Source of the DNA: Myxococcota bacterium
GTDB lineage: Bacteria; Myxococcota_A; UBA9042; PHBI01; JAWLBL01
Length of the DNA: 64,000 nt
Reading direction: 5' to 3'
Assembly: GCA_041687695.1 (NCBI GenBank)
Contig: JAWLBL010000001.1
Span: forward strand, 177,710-241,709
Made by a program: the position numbers and the translations under genes. Below are positions 38,048 to 56,191 of this stretch, piece by piece (the first letter of the stretch is position 1; the number at the start of each line of letters is the position of its first letter). The notes below the pieces were generated by a model. That model worked only from the letters and a program-made list of their open reading frames with translations. It had not been told where the DNA came from and did not search any database.

Positions 38048-38136
38048 ACCGCTAACTTGCACTACCCGGAAGCGGCCCCCTAGGCTTCGACGCTCCCACC
38101 GAGCCGCCCGGCTCGCAGCGCCTGGAGGCCCGCCCC

Positions 38137-40065: not shown

Positions 40066-40081
40066 GGGGTAAGCCTGCCTT

Positions 40082-40139
40082 GGTCAGGGGCCGGGGCGGG
40101 GTCGCCCGGGCGAGCCCGGCGAGCGCCGCGCCCCTGACC
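40082..40139. terminator. Hairpin downstream of the YbhB/YbcL gene
   Basis: GGTCAGGGGC...GCCCCTGACC outer stem with an inner CGGGC-GA-GCCCG stem. Confidence 0.4.
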
Positions 40140-40780: not shown

Positions 40781-40950
40781 CTCGGCTCCTTGCAGGGGGA
40801 GGGACGGCGACGACGGCGAGGGGCGCCGGCGGGCGGGCGAGCCGCCGGATGGGGGCGGCCCGGACGAGCGGGTGGCGGAGTGTTTCCCCAAGGGTAACTG
40901 CGGCCGAGGGCGGGGTGTCAAGGAGGCGGCCGTCGTCCGCGGACCGGACC

Positions 40951-41193
40951 GGTCAGCGGTGGCGGTAGACCCTTCCCGAGTCCGCTGGCCGATTCCGTGG
41001 CCCGGTTCCGTGGCTTCGTCGGCGCACCGAGCCCGGTGCCCTGCGAACGGCCCCCCGGCTCATACACCACTTGACAGGACACTACTCCGCCGTGAGTGGT
41101 GAAGCCGGGACCGGGCCCCCACGCACATAGTCCAAGCACCACCTTGGCTACTGGGTACCTCTGGGCCTCGCCAGAAGTGGCGAAGCCCCGAGG
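40951..41193. ncRNA. Candidate structured non-coding element (five consecutive stem-loops) 3' of the four-helix-bundle gene
   Basis: Stems at 40951-40990, 41015-41047, 41049-41117, 41128-41150 and 41158-41193, read by eye. No convincing ORF. Confidence 0.45.
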
Positions 41194-41200
41194 ATCACAC

Positions 41201-41563
41201 CTACCGCTTTGGGTGCATCAGCCGCCACGTCATCGCCTGCACGCGGTCGAGCAGCGCCAGCGCTTCATCCCCGCGCGCCTTCGGCACCGCGCCCGTCGCG
41301 ACGAGCAGCCGCATCGCGGCGGACGCCTCGCGACACGAGCCGTAGGCGATCCTGTAGTGCTGAACCCGGTCACGCCCCGCCCGGCCAGCGCCCTCGGCCA
41401 GGTTCAACGGCGTACTTGCGACCGCCCGCACCGCCTGCTCGGCGACGCACCGCAGTTGCGGACTCACGCCCCGCGTCGATGCCACGACCGCCACCGCCGC
41501 CTCGACCGCCAGCGATTCAGCCTGGAGTGAGCTGCCGTTCCGAACCACACCTTCGTCCTGCAT
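41201..41563 (-). CDS. Four-helix-bundle protein (23S-rRNA-IVS / bAvd-like family)
   Basis: EQAVRAVASTPLNLAEGAGR..HYRIAYGSCRE signature; about 120 aa. SD-like AAAGGA fits ATG 41563 (alternative start 41572). Confidence 0.88.
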   Translation of the reverse strand: MQDEGVVRNGSSLQAESLAVEAAVAVVASTRGVSPQLRCVAEQAVRAVASTPLNLAEGAGRAGRDRVQHYRIAYGSCREASAAMRLLVATGAVPKARGDEALALLDRVQAMTWRLMHPKR

Positions 41564-41726
41564 GGGAGCCATCCTTTCGTGTCAGTGGATGCGCCCCCAC
41601 CCCGCAGGGGTCCCCGGCGGCGTCAAGGGTCGCCGAAGGCGACCGGCGCGCAGCGCCGGCTTGCCCTTTACGTCGCCGGGGACCACTGCGACCCTCCCGC
41701 ATCCTCTGACGCGATGGATGGCTCCC
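41564..41726. other. 163-nt imperfect inverted repeat ending in a two-hairpin junction
   Basis: Nested stems GGGAGCCATCC/GGATGGCTCCC, TCGTGTCAG/CTGACGCGA, GGATGCG/CGCATCC, CGCAG/CTGCG, GGTCCCCGGCGGCGT/ACGTCGCCGGGGACC and AAGGG/CCCTT, capped by TCGCC-GAA-GGCGA and CCGGCGC-GCA-GCGCCGG. Confidence 0.9.
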
Positions 41727-41840
41727 TCAGCGACGAGGCCTGTGCCCAGCCACCTCAGCGCCCGCCCCACCGCGCAGCGAGCTGCGCGGGCCCTCGAGCA
41801 CGAGCAAGCTCGTGCAGTCCGGACGCCGCGTCTCGATGAC

Positions 41841-42102
41841 GGCGATGGCCACGGCCAAGGCCACGGCCACGGTCTACGGCCACGGTCCACGGCGACGGCC
41901 TCGGCCACGGTCTACGGCCTCGGCCTCGGCCTCGGTCTACGGCCTCGGCGACGGCCACGGTCTTACGGCCTCGGCGACGGCCACGGCGACGGCCACGGTC
42001 CACGGCGACGGCCACGGCCACGGTCTACGGCCTCGGCGACGGCCACGGACTACGGCCACGGTCTACGGCCACGGCCTCGGCCACGGCCACGGCCGCGGCC
42101 CT
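41841..42102. repeat. Compound microsatellite of 42 GG-initiated units (GGCCAC/GGCCTC/GGCGAC with interspersed GGTCTAC/GGTCCAC)
   Basis: Parsed by hand: 33 hexamers, 8 heptamers and 1 octamer, 262 nt in total. Confidence 0.93.
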
Positions 42103-42316
42103 GATAGCGAATCTGTGCAGCCGAGCCCCTGGACCATGAGGAAGCCTGGACCGCCAGCATCCACGCTGCGAGGCGCTTGGTCCCCAACCCCGTTTACCAA
42201 TCGGGTCTACCGCCGTCCGCGTGGCGAGCGGCGGCCGGACGCTGGACGCGAGCGGGGCCGCTTGACGCGCCGGGAGACGGGGTCGACGGTTCACTCCAAC
42301 CCCGCCCCCTCGGAAA

Positions 42317-45058
42317 ATGCCCAATCTCCTCGCAGACATACGTCCCGACGAGCGGCGCGGCGCCCTGCTGGCCTTCGTCACCCTCTTCGGCGTCCTCGCC
42401 GGCCACACGCTGCTCGAGACCGGCCGCGACGCGCTGTTCCTCGCCAAGGTCCCGGCCGACCGGCTGCCCTTCGTGTACCTGGCCATCGCCCTGCTGGCGC
42501 TGGCGGTCACGCGCGGGCGGCGGCCCCTGGTCGGCGGTGGCCACGGCCTGGCCACCTGGCTGGTCGCCTCGGCCTCGGTCACCCTGGGCTTCTGGGCCCT
42601 GAGCGCCCTCGAGGCCACCTGGGTGCTCTACGCCCTGTACGTCTGGGCCGGCCTGTTCGGGACCGTGGCCACGCTGCAGTTCTGGCTGCTCCTGGGCCAG
42701 ACCTACACCGTCCCCCAGGCCAAGCGCCTGTACGGCTTCATCGGCGCAGGCAGCGTCCTGGGCGCCGTCTCGGGCGCCTCGCTCGCCAGCCTGGTCACCT
42801 CGGCCCTGCCCACCCGCCACGTCCTGCTGGGCGCCGCCGTCGTCTTCCTGACCGCCGCCCTCGGCGCCGCCCGCCTGTCGCTGCGCACCACCACCCCGCG
42901 CCGCGCCGGGCGCCGCGTCGCGCGCCCGACCCACCCTGGCCGCTCCCCGCGCGAGGTCCTCGAGTACCCCTACGCGCGCCGCCTGGTCGCCCTGGTCGTC
43001 GTTGCGACGCTCACGGTCACCTTCCTCGACTACCTGTTCAAGGCCGAGGTCTCGCGCACCGTCTCCCCCGAGGGCCTCGGCTCCTTCTTCGCCAACTTCT
43101 ACGTCGCCCTGAACGGCCTCGCCCTCGTCGTCCAGCTGGTCCTGACCAGCCGCCTCATCCACCTGCTCGGCGCCCACCGCGCCCTGGTCATCCTGCCCGG
43201 CCTGCTGATGCTCGGCGCCGGCGGCCTGCTCGCCGGCGGCGCGCTCGTCGCGGTCCTGCTCGCCAAGGGCGCCGACGGCAGCCTCCGCCACTCGCTGCAC
43301 CGCACCAGCCTCGAGGTGCTGTTCATCCCCCTGCCCGAGCGCCTGCGCTTTCACACCAAGCGCCTCGTCGACGCCGCCGGCCACCGCGGCGCACAGGCCA
43401 CCGCCTCCCTGCTGCTGCTGGGCCTGCTCGCCGCCGACGCGCCCCTGCCGGTCTTCGCCGCCGCCATCCTGCTCTTCGCCGCCGGCTGGCTCACCCTCGC
43501 CCTGCGCCTGCGCGCCCCCTACCTCGAGCTCTTCCGCGCCCGCCTCCGCGAGGGCTCCGTCGCCCAGCTCGGCGACGCCCTGCCCCGCCTCGACGGCGAC
43601 TCGCTCGAGGCCGTCTTCGCCGCCCTCGGCAGCGAGGACCCCGCCCAGGTCCGCGCCGCCATCGATCTCCTGGCCGATCAGGGCAAGGTCCGCCTCATCC
43701 CGGCGGTCCTGCTCCACCACGACTGCCCCGACGTCGTCCTGCGCCTCCTCGAGCTGTTCGCCGAGGCCGGCCGCCGCGACTTCGTCCCCATCGCCGATCG
43801 CCTCGCTCGGACCGCGCCCCCCGACCTGCGCGCCGCCGCCCTGCGCGCCCGCACCGCCGTCGCCCCCGATCAGCTGCTGCTCCAGCGCTGCCGCGCCGAC
43901 GAGAGCGCGCTCGTCCAGGCCACGGCCCTGGTGGGCCTCGTCGCCGGCGGCTGGATGGCCGGGCCCACCGCCCGCGCCGCCCTGGGCGAGGTCGTCCGCC
44001 ACGGCACCGCCGAGGCCCGCGCCGCGCTCGCCCGCGCCATCGGCTTCCAGCCGCACGAGATCTTCCACGACGCGCTGCTCGCGCTGGCCAGCGACCCCGC
44101 CCTGGCGGTCCGCCGCGAGGTCGCCCGCGCCATGGCCGCCGGCCCCGTCGAGCGCTTCCTGCCGGCGCTGCTGCCCCTGCTGGCCCACCGCGACACCCGC
44201 GCCCCCGCCCGCGACGCGCTGGTCGCCCTGGGCGCGCCCGCCGTCGCCTTCCTCGGCCACGCCCTGTCCGACCCCGCCCTGCCCCTGCGCGTCCGCCGCC
44301 ACGTCCCGCGGACCCTGAGCCGCTTCGACACCCGGGCGGCCGCCGATCTCCTGCTGGCGCGCCTGACGGACGAGCCCAGCGGCATGGTGCGCTACAAGAT
44401 CCTGCGCGGCCTCGGCCGCATGCGCGCGGTGTCGCCCGAGCTCCCGCTCGACCGACGCGTGCTGGCGGCCGCGATGGACCGGACGCTGGAGCTGGCGCTG
44501 CAGTTGGCGACCTGGCACCTGGTGCTGACCCGCGGCGGCCAGGACGACCCCTCGCGCCGCACGCCCGCCCACGAGCTCATCGAGGGCCTGCTGGTCGACA
44601 AGAGCCGCCACGCCCTGGAGCGCTTCTTCCGCCTGCTGGGCCTGACGCTGCCCGGCGAGGACTTCGAGCGCATCCACCGCGGCCTGTTCCACGCCGACCG
44701 CGTGGTGCGCGCCTCCAGCCGCGAGCTGCTGGCCCACATCCTCGAGCCGCCGCTGCGCGACCGGGTGCTGGCCCTGGTCGACGAGGGCGGCGACGAGGCG
44801 CTCCTGTCCCGCGCCGGCGCCCTCGAGCGGGCCGAGACGCTGGGGTACGAGGCGCTGCTCGGCGAGATGCTGGACCACCCCAGCGAGACCCTGCGCTGCC
44901 TGGCCGCCTACCACGTGGGCGAGCTGGGCCTCGGGCGCCTCGGGCCGCGCCTCGAGCAGATGAGGCCGACCCTGGGGGCCGCCAGCGCCCGGGTCGTCGA
45001 GCGCGCGCTCAAGCTGCTGGCCCACCCGAACGGCGCCTGGAGGATGCATGAGGCCTGA
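42317..45058 (+). CDS. NTT/TLC-like MFS nucleotide transporter fused to HEAT repeats
   Basis: Roughly 400-aa multi-TM N-terminus with LETGRDALFL and QFW...QAKRLYGFIGAGSVLG, followed by repeated D...VR..A..A HEAT-like helices. Confidence 0.78.
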   Translation: MPNLLADIRPDERRGALLAFVTLFGVLAGHTLLETGRDALFLAKVPADRLPFVYLAIALLALAVTRGRRPLVGGGHGLATWLVASASVTLGFWALSALEATWVLYALYVWAGLFGTVATLQFWLLLGQTYTVPQAKRLYGFIGAGSVLGAVSGASLASLVTSALPTRHVLLGAAVVFLTAALGAARLSLRTTTPRRAGRRVARPTHPGRSPREVLEYPYARRLVALVVVATLTVTFLDYLFKAEVSRTVSPEGLGSFFANFYVALNGLALVVQLVLTSRLIHLLGAHRALVILPGLLMLGAGGLLAGGALVAVLLAKGADGSLRHSLHRTSLEVLFIPLPERLRFHTKRLVDAAGHRGAQATASLLLLGLLAADAPLPVFAAAILLFAAGWLTLALRLRAPYLELFRARLREGSVAQLGDALPRLDGDSLEAVFAALGSEDPAQVRAAIDLLADQGKVRLIPAVLLHHDCPDVVLRLLELFAEAGRRDFVPIADRLARTAPPDLRAAALRARTAVAPDQLLLQRCRADESALVQATALVGLVAGGWMAGPTARAALGEVVRHGTAEARAALARAIGFQPHEIFHDALLALASDPALAVRREVARAMAAGPVERFLPALLPLLAHRDTRAPARDALVALGAPAVAFLGHALSDPALPLRVRRHVPRTLSRFDTRAAADLLLARLTDEPSGMVRYKILRGLGRMRAVSPELPLDRRVLAAAMDRTLELALQLATWHLVLTRGGQDDPSRRTPAHELIEGLLVDKSRHALERFFRLLGLTLPGEDFERIHRGLFHADRVVRASSRELLAHILEPPLRDRVLALVDEGGDEALLSRAGALERAETLGYEALLGEMLDHPSETLRCLAAYHVGELGLGRLGPRLEQMRPTLGAASARVVERALKLLAHPNGAWRMHEA

Positions 45059-45956
45059 GACGGACCCCGGCCTGCCCGCCGCGCACGCGGTCCCCCTGAT
45101 GGAGCGCATGCTCCACCTGCGCGCCCAGCCGCTGTTCGCGGGGCTGTCCTCGGCGCGGCTGGCGATGGTCGCCGCCGCCACGCGCGAGCGCGCCTACACC
45201 CGCGGCGAGCTGGTGCTGGGCGAGGGCGAGCTGCACGACGCCATGATCTTCGTCGTCAGCGGCGCCGTGCGCCTGAGCCGCCACGGCCGGTTCGTCGACA
45301 CGGCGGGCCCGGGCGCCGTCGTCGGCGACCTGGGCGTCGTGGTCGGGCCCAGCGCCGGGCTCGAGGCGCGCGCCGAGACGGCCGCCCTGACCCTGGAGCT
45401 GACGCGCGACGGGCTGCTCGAGCTGCTCGAGGAGGACTTCAACCTGCTGCTCGAGGTCATCCGGCGCACGAGCGGGCAGCTCATCGAGCGGCTGGCCGCG
45501 ATGGAGGTCGCGCCCATCCTGCCGCCGGCGCCGCGCGCGCCCCTGGCCTTCCCGGACCGCGAGCTGGATCTGGTCGAGCGCCTGTTCCTCTTGCGCCGCA
45601 TGCCCGGCTTCACGACCGCGGGCCTCGACGCCCTGAGCGAGCTGGCGCGCGAGCTCAAGGAGCTGCGCCTGCCGGCCCGCGAGCGCCTGTGGGGCATCGG
45701 CGAGCCGGCGGGGCACCTGCTGTTCCTGGCGGGCGGCGACGTCACGTGCCGCGCGCCCCGGGGTTGGACCACCCTGCGCAGGGGGCTGTCGCTGGTCGGC
45801 GCCCTCGAGGCCATCGCCGGCGCGCCCCGCTGGTTCGAGGCGACCACCGCCACCGAGGTGGTCGCCCTGCGGGCCGACGTCGACACGCTGCTGGACGTGT
45901 TCGAGGACGACGGCGAGACGGCCCTGGGTTTCCTGACCCACCTGGCCAGCGCCTGA
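45048..45956 (+). CDS. Tandem cyclic-nucleotide-binding-domain protein
   Basis: Two repeats of ER..LR..P.F..L...L..GE....FV.SG; overlaps the upstream stop. Confidence 0.8.
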   Translation: MRPETDPGLPAAHAVPLMERMLHLRAQPLFAGLSSARLAMVAAATRERAYTRGELVLGEGELHDAMIFVVSGAVRLSRHGRFVDTAGPGAVVGDLGVVVGPSAGLEARAETAALTLELTRDGLLELLEEDFNLLLEVIRRTSGQLIERLAAMEVAPILPPAPRAPLAFPDRELDLVERLFLLRRMPGFTTAGLDALSELARELKELRLPARERLWGIGEPAGHLLFLAGGDVTCRAPRGWTTLRRGLSLVGALEAIAGAPRWFEATTATEVVALRADVDTLLDVFEDDGETALGFLTHLASA

Positions 45957-45989
45957 GCGCCGGACCTCGGGAACGGGCCGATGGTGCCT

Positions 45990-46297
45990 CGGCGACGGGT
46001 CGGACCTGTCCCGGCAACAGGTCGGAGCTGTCCCGGCAACAGGTCGGAGCTGTCCCGGCGACAGGTCGGACCTGTCCCGGCAACGGGTCGGACCTGTCCC
46101 GGCAACAGGTCGGACCTGTCCCGGCAACAGGTCGGAGCTGTCCCGGCGACAGGTCGGACCTGTCCCGGCAACAGGTCGGAGCTGTCCCGGCAACAGGTCG
46201 GAGCTGTCCCGGCGACAGGTCGTAGCTGTCCCGGCGACAGGTCGGACCTGTCCCGGCAACAGGTCGGAGCTGTCCCGGCGACAGGTCGTAGCTGCCT
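45990..46297. repeat. Tandem array of 14 x 22 nt palindromic units (CGGCRACAGGTCGGASCTGTCC)
   Basis: Units counted directly. The core GACAGGT-CGG-ACCTGTC is a hairpin. No spacers; lies between convergent genes. Confidence 0.95.
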
Positions 46298-46351
46298 CGG
46301 GACCAGCTCCGACCAGTCTCGAGAGCCAGGTCGGCGCGGTCTCGCGACGGC

Positions 46352-48133
46352 TCAGCGCGACGGCGGGGCGTCGTCCTCGGGGCGCTCGAGGCCGACGACG
46401 TGGTAGGTGGTGGCGTCGGTCTGGTAGGCGTGGACGCGCAGCGGGTTGCCTCGCTCCTTGCCGCTCTGGCCGGCGAAGACGTCGATGACGTGGTAGGCGG
46501 GACGCTGCTCGCTGGCGCCGGCGACCTGCGGCAGCAGCAGGCAGACCTCCTCGCCCAGGCGCCGCGCCACCGGCAGCCGGCCCTGCGGGGCCAGGCCGCG
46601 GCCGGCCCACGCGTGGGCCTGGTAGACGCGCTGGGTCGGGTCGACGACGCGGCCGAAGACGGCGAGATCGCGCAGGCACAGCATCGGCGCGCCCTCGGGG
46701 GACGGGCCCAGCGTGGGGCGCGCCAGCGGCGAGACGACCGACAGCCAGCGCCGCAGCAGCTTGTCGCGCCGGCCGATGAGGATGCGCTTCAGCTCGTCGG
46801 GCAGCACGCCCTCGGGCAGGCGCGCCTGCGCGACCAGGGCCTCGACGTGGGCGTCGGTGAACTCGGCCAGGATGCGCGCCGCCCAGGCGCCGTCGCGCTC
46901 GCTGATGCGCGAGAAGGCCGGGTTCGGGTACTCGTTCTTCCAGTCCTCGGGGTCGAAGGTCTCGACGTCGAAGTAGCCCCAGATCTCGCCGGACGGGCCG
47001 AACTCGGCCTGGTCCCAGGGCCGCACCGCGAAGCCCAGGGTCACGACGTCGGTCAGGATGTCCAGCGGGTCGAAGATGTAGCTGTGCCCGTGGCGCCGCG
47101 ACAGGCGGTCCCAGGCCCACAGGCTGCCGAAGCTGTCGCCGAAGTCGACGAAGTTGTGCCGCACGTGCCCGGCGACGGCCGCGTCTTCGGGGGCGTCCTC
47201 TGGCAGCGGCTCCTCGATGAACATCGACAGCGTGTTCTGCTCGCGCGAGTCGAAGTGGTTGACCCAGGCGGCGAACAGGTAGGCGCCGCGCAGCTCGCGG
47301 CGGTTCTCGTGGGGGACCACGTCGTTGGGGTCGTCCTTGCGGACGCCCTGGTAGGTCCACGGCCCCAGGGGCTTGCCCGGCAGAAAGAGGCTGGCCATCG
47401 CGCGGTAGCGGCCGTCGGGCATGCGGGTCGCCTTGGACAGCACCTCCTCCAGGTCCTTGGCGTCGAAGGGGACCTTGCGGCCGGTCGGCAGCTCCTTGTC
47501 GGCGTCCTCGGCGATGCGCAGGATGCCCCGGTCGAAGTAGACGACGTTGTTGCAGGGCGCCCAGTAGCCGGCGGCGTGATAGATGCGCGAGACCACCGCG
47601 TCGCCCGAGGTCGCGCGGAACTCCTGCACGTTGCCGTCGAATTTCACGAGATAGCGCCGCCCGTCGGCCATCTTCGCCTGAAAGCCCGGGTTCTCGCCGT
47701 CGGGCTTGCCGCCGACGATGGTCCAGGGGCCCTCGGTCTCGGGCGGCGGGCCCTCGCAGGGCCCCTCGGCGACCTCCTCGGGGCTCATCGGCGCGCGGCT
47801 CATGCGGTTGACGAACCAGCTGGAGTCGGGGACCTCGTCCCAGGCGTTCACGTTGACCGACTCCGCGCCGTAGTCGACCGACAGCAGGCGCGTGGTCGGC
47901 CGGGCCAGGCTCTGGTCCAGGAAGTCCCACACGAAGGGCGAGTAGTACTCCTCGGGCGGCGGCGTGAACGGGGTCTGGTCGGGGTCCTGCCACATCGGCT
48001 CCTTCAGCGGAAAGGGCCGCAGCTCGGAGCCGCCGCAGCCGGCGGACGAGGCGAGGACGAGCAGGGCGAACAGGCCCCGAGCGAGGGCGCGGCCGGCCCG
48101 CGGGGCGAGGTGGTGCGCGCGATCAGAACGCAA
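46352..48133 (-). CDS. Lipoprotein of unknown function with atypical-kinase-like motifs
   Basis: Lipobox-like ASSAGC; GGKPDGENPG, YLVKFD, WVNHFDSREQN and VDFGDSFG motifs. Confidence 0.7.
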   Translation of the reverse strand: MRSDRAHHLAPRAGRALARGLFALLVLASSAGCGGSELRPFPLKEPMWQDPDQTPFTPPPEEYYSPFVWDFLDQSLARPTTRLLSVDYGAESVNVNAWDEVPDSSWFVNRMSRAPMSPEEVAEGPCEGPPPETEGPWTIVGGKPDGENPGFQAKMADGRRYLVKFDGNVQEFRATSGDAVVSRIYHAAGYWAPCNNVVYFDRGILRIAEDADKELPTGRKVPFDAKDLEEVLSKATRMPDGRYRAMASLFLPGKPLGPWTYQGVRKDDPNDVVPHENRRELRGAYLFAAWVNHFDSREQNTLSMFIEEPLPEDAPEDAAVAGHVRHNFVDFGDSFGSLWAWDRLSRRHGHSYIFDPLDILTDVVTLGFAVRPWDQAEFGPSGEIWGYFDVETFDPEDWKNEYPNPAFSRISERDGAWAARILAEFTDAHVEALVAQARLPEGVLPDELKRILIGRRDKLLRRWLSVVSPLARPTLGPSPEGAPMLCLRDLAVFGRVVDPTQRVYQAHAWAGRGLAPQGRLPVARRLGEEVCLLLPQVAGASEQRPAYHVIDVFAGQSGKERGNPLRVHAYQTDATTYHVVGLERPEDDAPPSR

Positions 48134-49490
48134 AGCTGCTCCCCAGGGTCAGGCGGAAGTTCTCGATGGCGCCGCCGTCCTCGAAGGGCTCGGTGCCCCA
48201 GGCGAACAGGACGGCGAAGCTGGGCGACTGCATGTCGGGCGTCTCGAAGCCGAAGCCGAAGGAGGCGCGCAGCAGCCCCAGTTCGAAGTCCTCGAGGTGG
48301 GCGCCGAAGACGTTGCCGACGGCGCCGTGCAGCGAGGCGTCGAGCCAGGTCCAGATGGGCCACTGGTACTTGAGCATGGCGACCGCCGCGCTGCGGCCGA
48401 CCAGGCGGCGGCTGGGGAAGCCGAACAGGCGCTCGTTGCCGCCCAGGGTGATGAGCTCGGTGAAGGGCACGGGCGTGTCCCCCAGCGGATCGGCGAAGTC
48501 GGCCGACAGGGCGAGGCTCAGGACCCGCTCGCGGTAGACGTCGAGCATCCCTACGACGGCGGCGCCGTAGCGGGCCCAGGGCTCGACCGGGGCGGCCGAC
48601 AGGTCGAAGGACACGCTGCCGTAGGCCTCGGCGCGCACGCCGCTGCCGGCCGCGGGCCGGGCCTGCCGCGAGTCGAGGACCACCGAGAACCTGGGCGACA
48701 GGGCCGTGTAGCCTTCGTCGAAGCCGTAGGGGATGGGGAAGGCGCCCGTCTCCGACTGCGCGCGCAACGACGGCTCCTCGCAGCAGGTCGTGCTCTGGAA
48801 GGACAGGCGCGCCAGCTCGACCGAGCCGCGGACGAAGCTGCGGCCGGCCAGGACCTCGCGGACGCCCAGCTCGCCCGACAGGCGGTGCTCGCCGAAGCGC
48901 GACAGGTCCTCTTCGCGGCTGCGCGGGCCGAGGCCGGCGAAGATGCGGTCGGGGCGGTACCACCAGCGGGCGGTCGCGTCGAAGCTGGTGCCGTTGCCGG
49001 GCCAGTAGGTGTCGGTGAGGGCGAGGTCGTAGGAGTCGATGAAGCCGGCCAGGGTCGCGCGGGCGGTCAGGTTGTTGCCCGGGACCAGGAAGTCGTCGGC
49101 CCAGACGTAGGCGCCGTAGCGGCTCAGCGGCGAGCCGCCGCCGAAGTCGAGGGCGACGATGGGCACGAAGCCGGTCCGGAAGTCGTCGTCGGCGCCGGAG
49201 GTGAAGGCCTCGAGCAGCTTGGGGACGAAGCGCTTCTCCTCGACGGTGGTGAAGGCCCAGGCGGTGGGGCGCCGCAGGCCGTACTCGGCGACGGCCCACA
49301 GGGGGAAGAGCGCGGCGCGTGGGACCCATAGGGCCACGTCCGAGGTGGAGGTGGGCGCGGGGCCGCGGCCGTCGTAGTCGGGCACGGCGCGCTTGGGTGG
49401 GGCGGCGCTGCCGGTGCTGGCGCAGCCCGCGGCGGCCAGCGCGACGAGGAGCGACAGGGCGAGGTGGAGGGCGAGGGGCTTGATACGCAC
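48123..49490 (-). CDS. BamA/TamA (Omp85)-like outer-membrane beta-barrel
   Basis: Signal ending AAAGC; LGGNERLFGFPSRRLVGR (loop-6 VRGF-like); alternating beta strands; terminal Phe. Confidence 0.75.
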   Translation of the reverse strand: MRIKPLALHLALSLLVALAAAGCASTGSAAPPKRAVPDYDGRGPAPTSTSDVALWVPRAALFPLWAVAEYGLRRPTAWAFTTVEEKRFVPKLLEAFTSGADDDFRTGFVPIVALDFGGGSPLSRYGAYVWADDFLVPGNNLTARATLAGFIDSYDLALTDTYWPGNGTSFDATARWWYRPDRIFAGLGPRSREEDLSRFGEHRLSGELGVREVLAGRSFVRGSVELARLSFQSTTCCEEPSLRAQSETGAFPIPYGFDEGYTALSPRFSVVLDSRQARPAAGSGVRAEAYGSVSFDLSAAPVEPWARYGAAVVGMLDVYRERVLSLALSADFADPLGDTPVPFTELITLGGNERLFGFPSRRLVGRSAAVAMLKYQWPIWTWLDASLHGAVGNVFGAHLEDFELGLLRASFGFGFETPDMQSPSFAVLFAWGTEPFEDGGAIENFRLTLGSSFAF

Positions 49491-49500
49491 TATGGCAGCG

Positions 49501-50967
49501 TCAGGCTTCCGGTAGGGACGGCTCGAGGCGACCCGGCACCGGCGGCCGGGGCGACGTCCGCTCGGGGCGGGCGGGGGGGCGGTCGCCGGAGGCGGGCTCG
49601 GTGAGCGCGGCGCGGCGCCGGTACTCGCGGCCGATGGCCCAGACGACGCCCAGCCAGACCAGCGTGAGGGCGAAGTTGAAGGCGATGAAGCCGCGGGTCG
49701 TGAAGGCCAGGAGCGAGCCGAGGGCGACCACGCCGGCGCTCAGGACGTCACCGATGCGGACGAAGAAGGTGTCGATGACGACCTTGGCCTTGTACTTCTT
49801 GTCGCGGGTGGTCACGAGGAACAGCGCGTGGCGCACGGTATTGTACAGTGAGTAGTCCGTGCCGTTCTCGAGGACCTTGGCGACCATGATGACGGTCAGC
49901 GCCGGCGCGGCGAAGAGGACCGCGTAATTGCCGAGCACGATGAGGGGCAGCAGGAACAAGGCGATGCGCACGCCCAGGTACTTGAGGATGCGCGAGACGA
50001 GGAAGAGCTGGATGACGAGGACGGTGAGGTTGACCCAGCCGAAGAACTCGGCCTTGAACTCACCGATGTAGCCCTCGACCGTGACGCCGGCGCCCAGGGC
50101 GGCCTCGCGCTCGGCGACGTCGACCAGGACGCGGTCCAGGATGTACTCGCCGGTGGTGTTGACCCAGTTGAGGATGAGGAGGAGGGCGGCGACGAGGGCC
50201 AGGTAGCGGTCGCGCCAGACCAGGGCGAAGCCGCCGGCGGACCGGGCGGGCGCGGCGGCGGCGCTGGGGCCGGGCGCGGCGGAGGGTGGCGCGTCCTCGG
50301 CGGGCGCCTCGGGGCGCGGGGTGCGGTCGACGGCGGGGCTGCGGCGGTGCACGAGCCAGGTCAGGCCGAGGCAGGCGACCAGGACGCCGGCCGACAGGGG
50401 CATGAGCAGGAAGGGGCCGAGCGGCTCGATGAGCAGGCGGGCGATCCAGGCGCCCGCGACCGCGCCCAGGGCGCTGCCGGCGCCGACGATGGCGAACAGC
50501 CGCTTGCCCTGCTCCTCGGTGTAGACGTCGTTGGCGAAGGACCAGAACTGCGCGACGACGAAGACGTTGAAGATGCCGACCCACAGGAAGAAGGCGATGC
50601 CCAGTGGCACTTCGAAGGCGGCCAGCGCGTAGAACACGAGCAGATTCGAGGCGAAGAACAGGGTCGTCCAGGTGATGAGGCGCATGCGGTCGACGCGCGC
50701 GAACAGCCGGTCGTAGGCCTTGACGAAGAAGATGAGCAGCAGGGCCTGTCCGGCCGCGGAGTAGCTCTTGATCTCGGCGCCGCCGCCGCCGGCGAGGATG
50801 AGCGGCTCGCGCACGACCTTGAGGACGTAGTAGGCGGCGAGGAGGAGGAAGACGTTGGCCGCGAGGACGAGCGCGGAGAAGACCTCGTGCGGCCTGACGT
50901 CGGCGAAGAGCCCTAGGAGCTTGGCGACGCGCTCGCGCGCGGCTCCACGGGGCGCCAATGGGGTCAT
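49501..50967 (-). CDS. NTT/TLC-family (ATP/ADP-translocase-like) transporter
   Basis: YYVLKVVREPL, AQFWSFANDVYTEEQGKRLFAIVGAG and KYKAKVVIDTFFVRIGD motifs. GGGAGG before ATG 50967. Confidence 0.88.
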   Translation of the reverse strand: MTPLAPRGAARERVAKLLGLFADVRPHEVFSALVLAANVFLLLAAYYVLKVVREPLILAGGGGAEIKSYSAAGQALLLIFFVKAYDRLFARVDRMRLITWTTLFFASNLLVFYALAAFEVPLGIAFFLWVGIFNVFVVAQFWSFANDVYTEEQGKRLFAIVGAGSALGAVAGAWIARLLIEPLGPFLLMPLSAGVLVACLGLTWLVHRRSPAVDRTPRPEAPAEDAPPSAAPGPSAAAAPARSAGGFALVWRDRYLALVAALLLILNWVNTTGEYILDRVLVDVAEREAALGAGVTVEGYIGEFKAEFFGWVNLTVLVIQLFLVSRILKYLGVRIALFLLPLIVLGNYAVLFAAPALTVIMVAKVLENGTDYSLYNTVRHALFLVTTRDKKYKAKVVIDTFFVRIGDVLSAGVVALGSLLAFTTRGFIAFNFALTLVWLGVVWAIGREYRRRAALTEPASGDRPPARPERTSPRPPVPGRLEPSLPEA

Positions 50968-51209
50968 ACGACCTCCCGCGACGGTGCTTCGTCGTGGCGG
51001 TGGCTCGCCGGGGCGCCCGCGGCCTCGCGGCTGAGCCGGGGCGCGGACGAGGCGACCGCCGTATACGGGGTGCTGGGGGGTCCACCGAGGAGCATGCACG
51101 CTCCCCCGTGGCGGGTCACGGTTCGAGGCGACAACGGGTCATGGAGATGTCACACGGCGGCGCGTCGAGGCGATGGCCATGGACGTAGGCCGGCGGTAAG
51201 CTGCTCCGT

Positions 51210-52235
51210 ATGGTCGACGCGCATCGGGCCTTCGAACGGCTGCTGCAGCTGACGCGGACGCTCACCGAGGAGCTGCCGCTCGAGGCGGCGCTGCAGGAGG
51301 TGACCGACGCGGCGCTGGCGCTGGTGCCGGGCGACCACGCGTCGCTGCGGCTGCTGGACGACTCGCGGTCGCTGCTGGTGTCGGGTGCCCGGTCGGGCGA
51401 GGGGATGGACCAGCGCCCGATGGCCTTCCGGCCGGGTGAGGGGCTCATCGGCTGGGTGGTCGAGCGCGGGCAGTCGGCGCGCGTGGGCGACGCGGCGGGC
51501 GACCCGCGGTTCGTGCGCGACGGCGAGCAGGGGTTCTCGATCGCCTCGCTGCTGGCCGTGCCGATGTGGTCGGGGGGGCGCGTCATCGGGGTGCTGTCGG
51601 TCAGCTCGGCCCGAGGCGAGGCGTTCGCGCCCGAGCACGAGCTGACGGCGCAGGTGCTGGCGAACTGCGCGGTGCCGCCCATCGAGCGGGCGCGCCTTCT
51701 GCGGCTGTCGCAGACCGACCACCACACGATGGCCTTCAACCAGGGCTATCTGATGCCGCGCCTGAGCGAGGAGATGGCCCTCGCGCGGCAGTGGACGCGG
51801 CCGCTGGCCTACCTGCTGATGGATCTCGACCACTTCAAGCAGGTCAACGACACGTGGGGGCACGCGGTGGGCGATCGCGTGCTGCGCGAGTTCGCCGACC
51901 GGATGCGGGCGCTGGTGCGGCGCCAGGACGTGTTCGTGCGGCGTGGCGGTGAGGAGTTCTCGCTCATCATGCCGGGCACCGGGCTGCGCGAGGCGGCGGC
52001 GGTGGCCGAGCGCATCCGGGCGACGCTGGCGGCGCACCCGGTGGCGCTGCCGGACGGGTCGACGCGGGTGCAGACCGCGTGCATCGGCGTGGCCGTGTGG
52101 GACGGGGCCGAGTCGCCGGACGCGCTGGACCAGCGCGCCGACGCGGCGATGTACCGGGCCAAGGGGGGCGGGCGCAACCGCGTGGAGGTCGACGGGCGGG
52201 CGCGGGCCGGGGGCAAGGCGCCGGGCCAGGTCTGA
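51210..52235 (+). CDS. GAF-GGDEF diguanylate cyclase
   Basis: GEGLIGWV..SLLAVPM GAF domain; DLDHFKQVNDTWGH, RRQD I-site and GGEEF. Confidence 0.9.
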   Translation: MVDAHRAFERLLQLTRTLTEELPLEAALQEVTDAALALVPGDHASLRLLDDSRSLLVSGARSGEGMDQRPMAFRPGEGLIGWVVERGQSARVGDAAGDPRFVRDGEQGFSIASLLAVPMWSGGRVIGVLSVSSARGEAFAPEHELTAQVLANCAVPPIERARLLRLSQTDHHTMAFNQGYLMPRLSEEMALARQWTRPLAYLLMDLDHFKQVNDTWGHAVGDRVLREFADRMRALVRRQDVFVRRGGEEFSLIMPGTGLREAAAVAERIRATLAAHPVALPDGSTRVQTACIGVAVWDGAESPDALDQRADAAMYRAKGGGRNRVEVDGRARAGGKAPGQV

Positions 52236-52240
52236 CGGCG

Positions 52241-53197
52241 TCAACGGGCGGGCTCGGGGTCACCGGGTCGCGACAACGGGCCGCGGCGGACGCGGACGGC
52301 GTGGCGTGACGGCTCGAGGCCGCCGCCGTGGCGGCGCGCCCAGACCTGGGTCAGCTCGGCGCCGAAGAAGAAGACCTGCGACGAGTAGTACAGCCAGAGC
52401 ATGAGCACGAAGAAGGAGCCGGCGGCGCCGTAGACGGAGCCGACGGAGACGTGCGCGAGCCACAGGCCGATGAGGAGCTTGCCGAGGGCGAAGAGCACGG
52501 CGCTGACGAAGGCGCCGCGCCAGACGTCGCGCCAGGCGATGCGGACGTCGGGCAGGACCTTGAAGACCACCGCGAAGAGCACGGTGGCGAGGCCGATGGA
52601 GACCAGGAAGCTGGCGGCGCGGAAGAGGACCTCGGAGGCGGGCAGCGCCTGCCCGAAGCGCAGCTCGGCCGCGCGGAGGGCCGCCTCGCTGAGGATGAGC
52701 GCGACGAGCAGCAGGCCGATGAGGACGATGAGCACGAAGGAGACCAGGCGCTTGGCGACGATGCCCACGACGGCGCCGCGCAGGTGGCGCGCCGGGCGCG
52801 GGGTGACGTTCCAGATCTGGTTCAAGGCCGCCTGCAGCTGCACGAACAGGCGCGAGGCGGCGTAGAGGATGGCGGCGCCGCTGATCACGGTCGCGACGAG
52901 GCCCTCGCCGCGGTCGCTGACCCCCTCGAGCAGGGCGCTGACGACGGCGGCCGCCGCGGGGCCGAGCTCGGTCTCGAGGGCGAAGACGACCTGCGCGCGG
53001 GCGGTGTCCTCGCCGTAGACGAGGCCGGCGATGGCGACGGCGAGCAGCAGGACCGGGGCGATCGACAGCAAGGCGTAGAACGCCAGGGCGGCGGCCATGA
53101 GGGCGCCGCGGTCCTGCGAGTAGCCGGTCAGGATCTCGCGGAACATCGAGCCGCGGCCGTCGGGCCGGGCGTCGTCGGGGCGAGCGTCGGAGTCCAT
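52241..53197 (-). CDS. YihY / virulence factor BrkB family membrane protein
   Basis: AAALAFYALLS, ALNQIW and YGAAGS..LWLYYSSQVFFFGAE motifs. Confidence 0.92.
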   Translation of the reverse strand: MDSDARPDDARPDGRGSMFREILTGYSQDRGALMAAALAFYALLSIAPVLLLAVAIAGLVYGEDTARAQVVFALETELGPAAAAVVSALLEGVSDRGEGLVATVISGAAILYAASRLFVQLQAALNQIWNVTPRPARHLRGAVVGIVAKRLVSFVLIVLIGLLLVALILSEAALRAAELRFGQALPASEVLFRAASFLVSIGLATVLFAVVFKVLPDVRIAWRDVWRGAFVSAVLFALGKLLIGLWLAHVSVGSVYGAAGSFFVLMLWLYYSSQVFFFGAELTQVWARRHGGGLEPSRHAVRVRRGPLSRPGDPEPAR

Positions 53198-53325: not shown

Positions 53326-55098
53326 TCAGGGCGGCGAGAGCTCGGCGACGGCGGCCGTCAGCTCGTCGCGCAGGCACGCGTTGCAGTCGGCGCGGCCGTC
53401 GCGGCCGCAGCCGGAGCGGACGCCGTCGACGACGCGCAGGACGTCGAGGGCGCGGGGCTCGCGCAGGGCGCGCAGGGCGCGCAGCAGGACGAGGCGGTCC
53501 TCGCAGGTCGCCGCGGCGCGGAGCTCGACGGAGAGGCGGTTCCAGGGCTCGAGGTGCTCGAGGCGGCCGGTCTCGGCGAGCAGGGCGCGGGCGCGCTGGC
53601 GCACGACGGCGCGCGGGTCGAGGCGGGCCAGCTCGGCGAGGCGCTCGGCGGCGGTCGGGGCGAGGTGGGCGACGACGAGGGCGCGGGCGGCGTCGAAGAT
53701 CTCGCCGCGGGGCGACTGCAGGTGGTGGAGGACGGCGCCGAGGAGGGCGCCGTCGGCGGCGTAGTCGGGCTCGAGGCGCAGGGCGTGGGCGTAGGCGTCG
53801 AGCTCGTCGCGCCAGGTGCCGGCGGCGGCGTGGGCGAGGCCCAGGTGGTAGTGGGCGTGCGGGTTGGAGGGGGTGGCGTCGCGGAGGGCGCCCAACATGA
53901 GGACGGCGGGCTGCGGGTGGCCGGCGGCGAGGCTGGCGAGGGCCGGCTGGACGTCGGGGCGGGCGGCGAAGGCGTCGCGGGCGGCGAAGAGGCGGGCGCG
54001 GCGGGCGGCGAGGGCGCCGGAGTCGCGGTGGAGGGCGAAGCTGGGCGGCGGCGCGGCGACGTCGGAGGCGGCGGGTGGGGCGGCCGGCGGGGGGGCGTCG
54101 GTCGGGGCGAGCACGAGGCCGGCGGCGCCCAGGGCGCACACGGCGGCGGCGGCGGCGATGAATCGGAGGCGGTGGCGGGCGACGGCGGGCCGGGGGGAGG
54201 ACGGCGGGGGGCCGGCCCAGGCGGCCAGGAGGGCCTCGCGGGCGGCCTCGGCCGAGGGGAAGCGATCGTCGCGGCGCTTGGCGAGCAGCCGGGCGACGAG
54301 GGGCTCGAAGGCCTCGGGCAGGGAGAGGTCCGGGGCGGCCTCGCGCAGGGTCGGCGGCGGGCGGGTCAGGTGCAGGCCCAGGAGATCGTAGGCGTCGGGG
54401 GCCTCGAAGGGCAGGCGACCCGTGAGCAGCTCGAAGGCCATGACGCCCAGCGAGTAGAGATCGGCGCGTGCGTCGACCTTGCCGCCGGTGGCCTGCTCGG
54501 GGGCCATGTATTCGGGGGTGCCGTAGATGACGCCGACGCGGGTCAGCCGGGGCGCGGCGGCCTCGGCGTCGACCATGGCGACGCCGAAGTCGAGGATCTT
54601 GACGTGATCGGCGAAGCCGTCGCGCTCCGTCAGCATCACGTTCTCGGGCTTGAGATCGCGGTGGACGACCCCGAGGGCGTGGGCGGCGGCGAGGCCGGCG
54701 AGGACCTGCTCGAGGATGGGCGCGGCGCGGTCGACCGGAAGGCGGCGCTCGCGGCGCAGGACGTGCTCGAGCGTCTCGCCCTCGAGCAGCTCCATGACCA
54801 GGAAGGAGGCGCCCGCGTCGGTGCGGCCGTAGTCGACGGCGGCGCAGACGTTGGGGTGATCGATGCGACCGGCGGCTTGCGCCTCGCGCTGCAGACGCGC
54901 CACCATCTCGTCGTGTGCCGCCGAAGCGATGGTCGCGTGCAGCAGCTTGAGCGCGAACTGCTTGTGCATGAGCAGGTGCTCGACGCGCACGACGGTGCCC
55001 ATGGCGCCCGACCCCAGCGGCCCGAGCACCCGATAGCGGCCCGCCACGACCGTCCCGGCCGGCAGGGGCGTGTCAGCCGTGAGCTCCCCGTGCGACAA
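53326..55098 (-). CDS. Hanks-type Ser/Thr protein kinase with a TM helix and a TPR/HEAT-like C-terminus
   Basis: GSGAMG, ALK, HRDLKPEN, DFG, GTPEYMAPE and DLYSLG motifs. Confidence 0.93.
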   Translation of the reverse strand: MSHGELTADTPLPAGTVVAGRYRVLGPLGSGAMGTVVRVEHLLMHKQFALKLLHATIASAAHDEMVARLQREAQAAGRIDHPNVCAAVDYGRTDAGASFLVMELLEGETLEHVLRRERRLPVDRAAPILEQVLAGLAAAHALGVVHRDLKPENVMLTERDGFADHVKILDFGVAMVDAEAAAPRLTRVGVIYGTPEYMAPEQATGGKVDARADLYSLGVMAFELLTGRLPFEAPDAYDLLGLHLTRPPPTLREAAPDLSLPEAFEPLVARLLAKRRDDRFPSAEAAREALLAAWAGPPPSSPRPAVARHRLRFIAAAAAVCALGAAGLVLAPTDAPPPAAPPAASDVAAPPPSFALHRDSGALAARRARLFAARDAFAARPDVQPALASLAAGHPQPAVLMLGALRDATPSNPHAHYHLGLAHAAAGTWRDELDAYAHALRLEPDYAADGALLGAVLHHLQSPRGEIFDAARALVVAHLAPTAAERLAELARLDPRAVVRQRARALLAETGRLEHLEPWNRLSVELRAAATCEDRLVLLRALRALREPRALDVLRVVDGVRSGCGRDGRADCNACLRDELTAAVAELSPP

Positions 55099-55330: not shown

Positions 55331-56119
55331 GTGTCCTCGAGCTCCCCGGCGCGTATCGATCGGCGCGAATACAAATACCTCATCGACGAGGACACCGCCG
55401 CGCGCGTCCGCGAGGCCATCGCCCCCTTCTGCGTGCTCGACGGCTTCGCCGAGGCGCGCGCCGACCGGCGCTACATCATCGACAGCCTGTACTTCGACAC
55501 CCCCGACCTGCGCCTGTTCCGCGCCAACGAGCACGAGGTCGCCGATCGCTTCAAGGCCCGCGCCCGCACCTACCCCGAGAGCGCCACGGCCCCGGTCTTC
55601 TTCGAGATCAAGCGCCGCATCGGCGACGTCATCGCCAAGACGCGCGGCCGCGTGTCGCGCGACCACTGGGCCGAGGCGCTCGAGCGCGCGCGCGTGCCCC
55701 AGGACGACCGCTGCCCACCCCGCGACCGCCCCGCCGTCGAGCGCTTCTTCGCGCTCGCCTGGCGCTACCACCTGCGCCCGGTCGTGCTCGTCCGCTACGA
55801 GCGCGAGCCCTGGATGAGCGTCATCGACAGCTACGCCCGGGTGACCTTCGACTATCACGTCCGCAGCCAGGCCATCGATCGCCTGACCTTCGACCACGCG
55901 CCGAACGCCTGGCGCGCCTCCGACCACCCCGAGGCGAGCCGGGCGGACCGCTCGCTCATCATCCTCGAGCTGAAGTTCACGACCCACGTCCCGATGTGGC
56001 TGGTCCACATCGTCGAGCGTTTCGACCTGTGGCGTCAGTCGTTCTCCAAGTACGGCACCTCGGTCCAGGCGTGGCACCTCCCCGCGTCGCTGAGGACCTC
56101 GCCCAGGCTCGCCACGTAG
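55331..56119 (+). CDS. VTC-domain polyphosphate polymerase (CYTH/TTM fold)
   Basis: RREYKY, SLYFDT, FKARARTY, FFEIK, YERE, RVTFD, ILELK and FSKY motifs. GGAGG upstream. Confidence 0.9.
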   Translation: MSSSSPARIDRREYKYLIDEDTAARVREAIAPFCVLDGFAEARADRRYIIDSLYFDTPDLRLFRANEHEVADRFKARARTYPESATAPVFFEIKRRIGDVIAKTRGRVSRDHWAEALERARVPQDDRCPPRDRPAVERFFALAWRYHLRPVVLVRYEREPWMSVIDSYARVTFDYHVRSQAIDRLTFDHAPNAWRASDHPEASRADRSLIILELKFTTHVPMWLVHIVERFDLWRQSFSKYGTSVQAWHLPASLRTSPRLAT

Positions 56120-56191
56120 CCCAAGGCGCGTGCCCCCCTCCCGCTCCCCCACCGCTGCCCCGGGCCCAGGTCGCCCGACGGAGCCTCCCCC

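What the first reader, a model, noticed from the sequence alone, without database searches (positions are those of the whole stretch)
46352..50967. NTT translocase + Omp85 barrel + kinase-like lipoprotein operon: possible ATP supply to an extracytoplasmic kinase
Seen: three tightly coupled minus-strand genes (10-nt gap, 11-nt overlap). The last encodes a lipoprotein with kinase-like motifs in the expected order: Gly-rich GGKPDG, YLVK (beta-3 Lys), Glu, HFDSREQN (DxxxxN catalytic loop) and DFG. Known: TLC/NTT proteins exchange ATP/ADP in Rickettsia, Chlamydia and plastids; their role in free-living bacteria is unclear, and the periplasm normally lacks ATP. Inference: the NTT exports nucleotide for a periplasmic or surface atypical kinase, with the barrel acting as its translocator or substrate channel. 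Alternatively the system imports prey- or environment-derived nucleotides.
Basis: partly seen in the sequence, partly recalled or inferred. Interest (0 to 1): 0.76.

Follow-up and report, generated by a model that had tools for sequence, protein, structure and literature searches.

The report
Periplasmic kinase-like lipoprotein with nucleotide carriers
A soil-type myxobacterial genome carries a conserved gene set (an exported kinase-like lipoprotein, the outer-membrane barrel it is predicted to dock under, and ATP/ADP-carrier-type transporters) that suggests, without proving, ATP-driven chemistry in the periplasm, where ATP is thought to be absent.

Summary
Three coupled minus-strand genes encode a short TLC/NTT-family carrier (49501-50967), a POTRA-less Omp85 barrel (48123-49490) and a lipoprotein (46352-48133).

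The lipoprotein belongs to a large family with no Pfam match. Its core folds like Fam20C, CotH, CtkA and PI4KII kinases (Z 12-13.7). Lys, Asp, Asn and Asp are all kept in 118 of 130 divergent relatives. Two co-varying cysteine pairs point to an oxidising compartment.

A complex model docks the lipoprotein on the barrel's N-terminal helix and periplasmic turns (score 0.84, best control 0.02).

The barrel lies within 500 bp in 38 of 51 fully flanked relatives. A TLC gene lies in 36 of 51, in many arrangements. This genome's only two TLC genes both flank the lipoprotein. In a phylum sample, 43 of 44 genomes with the kinase have a TLC gene, against 106 of 357 without it.

Best reading (about 0.5): a periplasmic atypical kinase fed nucleotide by TLC carriers. 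Transport, its direction, kinase activity and the substrate are all untested.

The scan noted the same module before in four other genomes. Five literature searches found no description of it.

The parts
46352..48133 (-). Lipoprotein of an unannotated kinase-like family (593 aa)
   Evidence: GC3 0.973. No Pfam or NCBIfam hit at E<=1. Family of 2512 cluster representatives at E<=1e-3. AF2 model pLDDT 78, pTM 0.82.
48035..48133 (-). Signal peptide and lipobox (residues 1-33, SAG|C)
   Evidence: Single N-terminal hydrophobic segment. Cys33 invariant in 24 of 24 close relatives and present in 100 of 130 divergent ones.
47777..48034 (-). Conserved N-terminal docking segment (residues 34-119; PEEYYSPF, NVNA, DEVPDSSWF motifs)
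   Evidence: Highly conserved but pLDDT below 50 at residues 63-96 in the monomer model. Residues 39-102 make most contacts with the barrel in the complex model.
46724..47776 (-). Atypical kinase-like domain (residues about 120-470; K164, D295, N300, D330)
   Evidence: VIA-align: CtkA Z 13.7, Fam20C 13.4, PI4KIIalpha 12.3, CotH 11.9, MavQ 10.8, HipA 10.5. Foldseek top hit Fam20C, E 2.2e-4. Residue conservation.
46385..46735 (-). C-terminal Ig/FN3-like beta-sandwich (residues 467-583) with cysteine pair 486/531
   Evidence: Z 7-9.7 to beta-sandwich domains. C486 and C531 are both present in 69 and both absent in 61 of 130 relatives, never alone.
48123..49490 (-). POTRA-less Omp85-superfamily 16-strand barrel with a long N-terminal helix (455 aa)
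   Evidence: PF01103 23.2 bits against a cut-off of 24. 31 of 39 orthologues match PF01103 at E<=0.01. Model pLDDT 86. BamA Z 23.3, TamA 23.1, Sam50 22.9, FhaC 21.2, porins <=15. Ends in Phe.
49501..50967 (-). Short TLC/NTT-family inner-membrane carrier (488 aa from ATG 50967)
   Evidence: PF03219 28.4 bits against a cut-off of 21. Family profile against solved NTTs: 9j3n E 1.8e-18 over the full length, 9j3j E 1.8e-13. GGAGG site before the ATG.
42317..45058 (+). Second carrier: TLC domain fused to HEAT repeats (913 aa), convergent with the lipoprotein gene
   Evidence: PF03219 30.8 bits and HEAT_2. 30% identical to the short carrier. One of only two TLC genes found in the 7.97-Mb genome.
45048..45956 (+). 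Tandem cyclic-nucleotide-binding protein, overlapping the end of the TLC-HEAT gene
   Evidence: PF00027, two stretches. The TLC-HEAT plus cNMP pair recurs near the lipoprotein in 9 of 80 related loci.

Best explanation
This is an envelope module built around an exported enzyme.

The lipoprotein is secreted, lipid-anchored and disulfide-bonded. It folds as an active-looking atypical kinase of the Fam20/CotH/CtkA/PI4KII type.

It docks through its conserved N-terminal segment and two loops onto the N-terminal helix and periplasmic turns of a POTRA-less Omp85 barrel. It therefore sits in the periplasm under the outer membrane.

A kinase there needs a phosphoryl donor. The linked TLC/NTT-family carriers are proposed to exchange cytoplasmic ATP (or another NTP) for periplasmic ADP across the inner membrane. 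One carrier is short. The other is fused to HEAT repeats and paired with a cyclic-nucleotide-binding protein.

Shown here: gene structure, fold, residue conservation, export signals, genomic linkage, and a model of the complex.

Inferred: catalysis, nucleotide transport and its direction. The substrate is unknown. It could be a protein, glycan or lipid of the envelope, possibly something handled by the barrel.
For: Fold: residues about 120-470 match 13 atypical kinases at Z 9.9-13.7. The top 13 rows are all kinases. Foldseek's top hit is Fam20C, E 2.2e-4.

Catalytic set: K164, D295, N300 and D330 are all present in 118 of 130 divergent relatives.

Export: a lipobox, and two cysteine pairs that co-occur almost perfectly. 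C126/C194: 56 both, 73 neither, 1 single. C486/C531: 69 both, 61 neither, 0 single.

Docking: ipSAE 0.84 in three runs against a best control of 0.02. That mark was reached by 116 of 157 solved complexes and 2 of 215 mismatched pairs. The runs share at least 92% of contacts, and partner pLDDT is at least 88. The three stretches that were disordered in the monomer model (63-96, 258-270, 339-354) all lie in the interface. On the barrel, contacts are residues 8-72 plus the connections between strands 8-9, 10-11 and 12-13. These are periplasmic in the standard Omp85 topology.

Barrel linkage: of 51 related loci with at least 5 kb on both sides, the barrel is present in 40, and within 500 bp in 38.

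TLC linkage: a TLC gene is present in 36 of those 51. On the lipoprotein tree, TLC presence changes at least 11 times and its arrangement at least 16 times. The genome's only two TLC genes both lie within 4 kb of its only copy of the lipoprotein.

Co-occurrence: in a 401-genome phylum sample, 43 of 44 genomes with the kinase also have a TLC relative, against 106 of 357 without it.

Carrier identity: the family profile matches solved ATP/ADP carriers over the full length, E 1.8e-18.
Against: No transport, binding or kinase assay exists for any member.

The carrier is very far from characterised NTTs (TIGR00769 16 bits against a cut-off of 387). Its substrate is therefore open.

The one canonical NTT read about here prefers ATP import, is independent of membrane potential and is orientation-locked (PMC1951785 abstract). 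A 2026 preprint passage calls the mitochondrial carrier the only known ATP exporter.

TLC relatives are common without this kinase (106 of 357 genomes). In 6 such genomes examined the neighbours were unrelated or pointed to nucleoside or phosphate metabolism: PNP_UDP_1, Metallophos, His_Phos_1, PPDK_N.

15 of 51 fully flanked loci have no TLC gene within 5-7 kb.

The lipoprotein has no sequence-level tie to any known kinase family: Pfam gives nothing and hhalign against this genome's CotH genes gives probability 1%. A shared fold does not prove catalysis.

Related genomes are not independent, so the co-occurrence counts overstate the case.
Confidence: 0.5

Rival explanations
1. Nucleotide uptake system. 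The barrel is the outer-membrane channel. The kinase-fold lipoprotein is only a periplasmic nucleotide-binding or capture protein. The TLC carriers import environmental or prey-derived nucleotides, as canonical NTTs do.
For: Characterised NTTs import (PMC1951785 abstract; preprint passage). In one of 6 kinase-negative genomes the short TLC gene is followed by a PNP_UDP_1 phosphorylase-family gene, which fits salvage. The outer-membrane protein, lipoprotein and inner-membrane transporter layout resembles uptake systems (inference).
Against: The catalytic-loop Asp295 is kept in 125 of 130 relatives, and all four catalytic positions in 118 of 130. Binding alone would not need the catalytic Asp. 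Omp85 barrels are not known as solute channels. No salvage or nucleotidase gene recurs among the 80 loci.
Confidence: 0.2
2. Delivered effector kinase. The lipoprotein is exported to the surface or into vesicles, with the barrel as its translocator. It acts inside prey or neighbour cells using their ATP, as secreted CtkA does in host cells. The TLC linkage has another cause.
For: The top structural match is the secreted H. pylori kinase CtkA (Z 13.7). Omp85 relatives FhaC and CdiB secrete partners (Z 21-22). Relatives are myxobacteria, many of which are predators (record titles).
Against: The complex model places the folded enzyme against the periplasmic turns and N-terminal helix of the barrel, not in or above the pore. 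This reading does not explain why 43 of 44 kinase-bearing genomes carry a TLC gene, nor why both TLC genes here flank the kinase gene. No POTRA domain for substrate handling was found.
Confidence: 0.1
3. Non-kinase role. The lipoprotein is a structural or regulatory partner of the barrel (as BAM lipoproteins are), or it uses another donor or chemistry, such as polyphosphate or nucleotidyl transfer.
For: There is no sequence tie to a proven kinase family. The predicted interface with the barrel is tight and co-inherited (pairwise identities correlate at r 0.90). A VTC/DUF4956/HlyD cassette lies 4 kb away.
Against: Pseudokinases usually lose the Lys/Asp/Asn/Asp set, and here it is kept. The VTC cassette did not recur among the 25 commonest neighbour clusters of the 80 loci.
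Confidence: 0.1

Closest known systems
Fam20C and other secretory-pathway kinases of animals, supplied by an ER/Golgi ATP/ADP exchanger (the exchanger is recalled, not looked up)
   Same: Same fold class (Z 12.4-13.4). Works outside the cytosol. Disulfide-bonded. Needs ATP carried across a membrane.
   Different: No detectable sequence relation (no PF06702 hit). Bacterial, lipid-anchored and docked to an outer-membrane barrel. The proposed carrier is an MFS-type NTT and is genetically linked to the kinase.
CotH atypical kinases (PF08757; Bacillus spore coat)
   Same: Bacterial exported kinase-like enzymes with the same fold class (Z 11.9 to 5jda). This genome has 8 CotH genes, at least 4 with lipoprotein-like signals.
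   Different: Profile-profile comparison finds no relation (probability 1%). The lipoprotein has a different N-terminal docking segment and a different C-terminal domain, and its partners are an Omp85 barrel and TLC genes.
CtkA (JHP940), the secreted kinase of Helicobacter pylori (PDB 3akj)
   Same: Best structural match: Z 13.7, rmsd 4.0, 232 residues aligned.
   Different: 10% identity. By its PDB title CtkA is a secreted proinflammatory kinase. It is not a lipoprotein and has no barrel or carrier partner (recalled).
NTT/TLC ATP:ADP antiporters (PF03219, TC 2.A.12) and the NTT-HEAT-cNBD clade of free-living bacteria (Major, Embley and Williams 2017, PMC5381601)
   Same: Both carriers pass the Pfam cut-off. 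The short family's profile matches solved NTTs over the full length. The TLC-HEAT plus cNMP-binding pair is the architecture that paper describes (abstract and passages read).
   Different: Far below NCBI's NTT model cut-off. The function of free-living NTTs is unknown. The paper contains none of the words periplasm, export or kinase.
Omp85 superfamily: BamA, TamA, Sam50, FhaC/CdiB
   Same: 16-strand barrel at Z 21-23. C-terminal Phe. Long loop 6, with the RGF motif present in the family consensus.
   Different: No POTRA domain. Instead there is a 37-residue N-terminal helix, which forms the predicted docking face. The window's copy reads LFGF where the consensus reads MRGF.

Membership tests
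Protein-kinase-like superfamily, Fam20/CotH/PI4KII/HipA-type atypical kinases | Two-lobed kinase fold | tested here: met
   VIA-align Z 9.9-13.7 to 13 atypical kinases over model residues about 120-470. Foldseek top hit Fam20C, E 2.2e-4.
Protein-kinase-like superfamily, Fam20/CotH/PI4KII/HipA-type atypical kinases | Strand-3 Lys, helix-C acid, catalytic-loop Asp...Asn and metal-binding Asp (DFG), in order and conserved | tested here: met
   K164 121, acid at 178 114, D295 125, N300 123, D330 127, each of 130. The order fits the model's strands and helices. No residue-level superposition was available.
Protein-kinase-like superfamily, Fam20/CotH/PI4KII/HipA-type atypical kinases | Phosphotransfer activity | not testable with these tools
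   Needs an assay.
CotH (PF08757) or Fam20C (PF06702) as sequence families | Match to the family profile | tested here: not met
   No Pfam family at E<=1. hhalign against 7 CotH genes of this genome gives probability 1%.
Bacterial lipoprotein | Signal peptide ending in a lipobox with an invariant Cys | tested here: met
   Residues 1-33 end in SAG|C. The Cys is present in 24 of 24 close relatives and 100 of 130 divergent ones. No dedicated signal-peptide predictor was available.
Omp85 superfamily (PF01103) | Profile match above the curated cut-off | tested here: inconclusive
   The window's protein scores 23.2 bits against a cut-off of 24, covering positions 6-325 of 325. 31 of 39 orthologues match at E<=0.01, best 2.4e-13.
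Omp85 superfamily (PF01103) | 16-strand barrel like BamA/TamA | tested here: met
   16 strands in the model. Z 23.3 to BamA and 23.1 to TamA, against <=15 for porins.
BamA/TamA/TpsB subfamilies of Omp85 | N-terminal POTRA domain(s) | tested here: not met
   No POTRA family in Pfam. The N-terminus is modelled as a long helix, mature residues 27-63.
TLC/NTT nucleotide transporters (PF03219) | Pfam match above the cut-off and full-length likeness to solved NTTs | tested here: met
   28.4 bits against a cut-off of 21. Profile against 9j3n E 1.8e-18 over positions 15-447 of 451, and against 9j3j E 1.8e-13.
TLC/NTT nucleotide transporters (PF03219) | Membership of the characterised NTP/NDP exchanger clade (TIGR00769) | tested here: not met
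   16 bits against a cut-off of 387.2.
TLC/NTT nucleotide transporters (PF03219) | Nucleotide transport, and its direction | not testable with these tools
   Needs uptake and efflux assays.

The most novel reading that the evidence does not exclude
Free-living Gram-negative bacteria run ATP-dependent phosphorylation in the periplasm. NTT-family carriers work as ATP exporters, the reverse of their role in parasites and plastids. They feed a dedicated atypical kinase that is held under an Omp85 barrel. This would be a bacterial counterpart of the eukaryotic secretory-pathway kinase system.
Probability: 0.45. Interest if true: 0.92.

Novelty: new variant of a known kind. Interest (0 to 1): 0.8.

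Why it matters
Textbooks treat the periplasm as free of ATP. Envelope processes are therefore thought to be powered indirectly.

A conserved exported kinase with its own nucleotide carriers would challenge that view. It would also offer a function for the many unexplained NTT genes of free-living bacteria, and a role for a POTRA-less Omp85 barrel.

The lipoprotein family is large (2512 cluster representatives) and has no annotation. All parts can be tested with ordinary assays.

Tried and rejected
Sequence relation to known kinases: Pfam and NCBIfam gave nothing. A PDB sequence search gave only a chance hit, E 0.34. hhalign against this genome's CotH genes gave probability 1%. A PF06702 search of the genome found nothing, but the control rang nowhere, so that result says nothing.

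PF03219 six-frame search of the phylum sample: it missed this genome's own two TLC genes. I replaced it with the family profile A4. Ten apparent negatives were checked with the protein query, and 9 of the 10 had a match.

Range outside Myxococcota: named relatives found here were all myxobacterial-type. The listing of cluster members added one Bradymonadia name. Only the ESM Atlas pointed outside the phylum, to a cluster whose commonest phylum is Acidobacteriota. The wider range claimed in earlier notes was not tested here.

RNA and signals: the Rfam E-value scan of 40900-52300 gave one chance miRNA hit. No sigma-70-like promoter or intrinsic terminator was found in 45800-51300.

Sequencing runs: none was listed, so there is no RNA holder.

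Transmembrane count: the hydropathy count was too crude to use.

Literature: searches (listings read only) found no paper describing this module. The structure paper behind 9j3n/9j3j was not in the library.

Errors: (a search term with a slash) was corrected. (a range with stop codons) was dropped.
Full report
**Observation.** The window is about 74% G+C. It lies in a 7.97-Mb genome of 63 contigs. Three minus-strand ORFs at 46352-48133, 48123-49490 and 49501-51099 have third-position GC of 0.973, 0.976 and 0.94, while the overlapping frames have 0.56-0.70. They are therefore the real genes. The 10-nt gap and the 11-nt overlap were read in the sequence. The carrier most likely starts at ATG 50967 behind GGAGG. 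The set is flanked by plus-strand genes on both sides, so it forms one unit.

**The lipoprotein.**
- It has no Pfam or NCBIfam family at E<=1 and no sequence match among solved structures.
- The family is large. 1454 relatives at E<=1e-3 were found among 8000 scored candidates, and every relative that carries a name is called hypothetical protein. An exhaustive search found 2512 cluster representatives at 50% identity.
- An AlphaFold2 model built from 24 sequences has pLDDT 78 and pTM 0.82.
- Foldseek ranks Fam20C first (E 2.2e-4), then Fam20A and PI4KIIalpha.
- An independent all-against-all structural search gives these matches over residues about 120-470: CtkA Z 13.7, Fam20C 13.4, Hydra Fam20 12.8, PI4KIIalpha 12.3, CotH 11.9, MavQ 10.8, HipA 10.5 and actin-fragmin kinase 10.3. 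It also gives beta-sandwich matches (Z 7-9.7) for residues 467-583.
- In 130 divergent representatives, K164 is kept in 121, D295 in 125, N300 in 123, D330 in 127 and all four in 118. The helix-C acid is Glu in 62 and Asp in 52.
- Profile comparison with this genome's CotH genes finds no relation. This is a separate family of the kinase-like fold.

**Location.**
- The protein starts with a signal peptide and lipobox, and the Cys is invariant in 24 of 24 close relatives.
- Two cysteine pairs appear and disappear together across the family. C126/C194: 56 both, 73 neither, 1 single. C486/C531: 69 both, 61 neither, 0 single. This is the pattern of disulfides, and so of an oxidising compartment.

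**The barrel.**
- The window's protein scores just under the Omp85 cut-off (23.2 against 24, full-length match). 31 of 39 orthologues match.
- Its model (pLDDT 86) has 16 strands and a 37-residue N-terminal helix, with no POTRA domain.
- It matches BamA, TamA, Sam50, CdiB and FhaC at Z 21-23. Porins reach at most 15.

**The complex.**
- With paired alignments of 39 rows, the model scored 0.84 in three runs. The best of three controls scored 0.02. That mark was reached by 116 of 157 solved complexes and 2 of 215 mismatched pairs. The runs share at least 92% of contacts, and partner pLDDT is at least 88.
- This supports binding but does not show it. I know of no solved complex like it (recalled).
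- On the lipoprotein, the interface uses residues 39-102, 266-273 and 341-374. These cover the three stretches that were disordered in the monomer model and hold some of the most conserved motifs (NVNA, DDPNDV).
- On the barrel, the interface uses the conserved PDYDGR segment, one face of the N-terminal helix, and the connections between strands 8-9, 10-11 and 12-13.
- In the standard Omp85 topology the N-terminus is periplasmic. Those connections are then periplasmic turns (inference), so the enzyme sits under the barrel and not on the surface.

**The carriers.**
- The short carrier passes the TLC cut-off (28.4 against 21). Its family profile matches two solved ATP/ADP carriers over the full length (E 1.8e-18 and 1.8e-13).
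- It is far from NCBI's model of the characterised clade (16 against 387).
- A second TLC gene, fused to HEAT repeats and followed by a tandem cNMP-binding gene, converges on the lipoprotein gene. That architecture was described by Major et al. 2017 (PMC5381601). The paper does not contain the words periplasm, export or kinase (abstract and passages read).

**Linkage.**
- A scan of species genomes found at least 542 with a relative. The best 80 loci were kept, and nearly all bear myxobacterial-type record titles.
- Of 51 loci with at least 5 kb on both sides: the barrel is present in 40 (38 within 500 bp), a TLC gene above 150 bits in 30 and above 60 bits in 36, both barrel and TLC in 27, and neither in 6.
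- The TLC gene sits upstream, downstream or on the other strand. On the lipoprotein tree its presence changes at least 11 times and its arrangement at least 16 times.
- This genome has exactly two TLC genes, and both flank its single lipoprotein gene.
- In an even sample of 401 genomes of the phylum, 44 have the kinase and 149 have a TLC relative. The overlap is 43 of 44, against 106 of 357 genomes without the kinase (my count from the two lists).
- Related genomes are not independent, so these are descriptive counts.
- Lipoprotein and barrel pairwise identities correlate at r 0.90, as expected for a co-inherited pair.

**Against the ATP-export reading.**
- TLC genes are common without this kinase. 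In six such genomes the neighbours differed: a second TLC, a hydrolase, PilZ, PPDK_N twice, Metallophos, PNP_UDP_1, and His_Phos_1 with a protein kinase.
- A canonical NTT prefers ATP import regardless of membrane potential (PMC1951785 abstract).
- A 2026 preprint passage states that only the mitochondrial carrier is a known ATP exporter.
- No assay exists.

**Comparison and novelty.** The nearest analogy is the eukaryotic secretory-pathway kinase Fam20C with its lumenal ATP supply. The nearest bacterial kinds are exported CotH kinases and secreted CtkA. Five literature searches found no description of this module. Four earlier notes of this scan describe the same module in other genomes with the same reading. 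They are not independent evidence. Here I tested the fold, the docking and the linkage on this genome and its relatives.

**Verdict.** The fold prediction and residue conservation are confirmed. The barrel-lipoprotein pair is a conserved core, probably binding. The TLC genes are functionally linked. ATP export to a periplasmic kinase is the best available mechanism (about 0.5), but it is unproven.

Noticed in passing
window 55331-58944 (+): A VTC-domain gene, a DUF4956 gene and a HlyD-like adaptor gene sit in a row 4 kb from the short TLC gene. The scan's notes (233 findings) treat this cassette as a candidate polyphosphate export module. Two candidate routes for phosphoryl donors into the envelope therefore lie side by side.
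   Followed up: no
G000 loci L082-L089: The genome has 8 CotH-family genes. At least four (L083, L085, L086, L087) begin with lipoprotein-like signals. This organism therefore exports several kinase-fold enzymes.
   Followed up: partly
window 38056-39075 (+) and 39094-40083 (-): Two PAP2 phosphatase genes, each with a single N-terminal hydrophobic segment. PAP2 genes recur near the lipoprotein in 8 of 80 related loci. In L064, L074 and L075 one sits directly upstream of the lipoprotein, where the barrel usually is. This is a possible counter-activity.
   Followed up: partly
window 50968-52235: A GAF-GGDEF diguanylate cyclase gene diverges from the TLC gene across a 242-bp spacer. A Ser/Thr protein kinase gene follows at 53326-55098.
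   Followed up: no
P0383 (JGI contig) and L047:715-3603: One 908-aa database protein carries both TLC and Omp85 Pfam domains. In L047 a single 962-aa open frame spans both the barrel and the lipoprotein. These are probably run-through gene calls rather than real fusions.
   Followed up: no
window 48123-49490 (-): The window's barrel has its own lipobox-like end of signal (AAGC), which most orthologues lack. It reads LFGF where the family's loop-6 consensus reads MRGF.
   Followed up: no
L091:10767-13892 and L092:913-4305: In two of six kinase-lacking genomes, the short TLC gene lies near a protein of more than 1000 aa with PEP-utilizer and PPDK_N ATP-binding domains.
   Followed up: no
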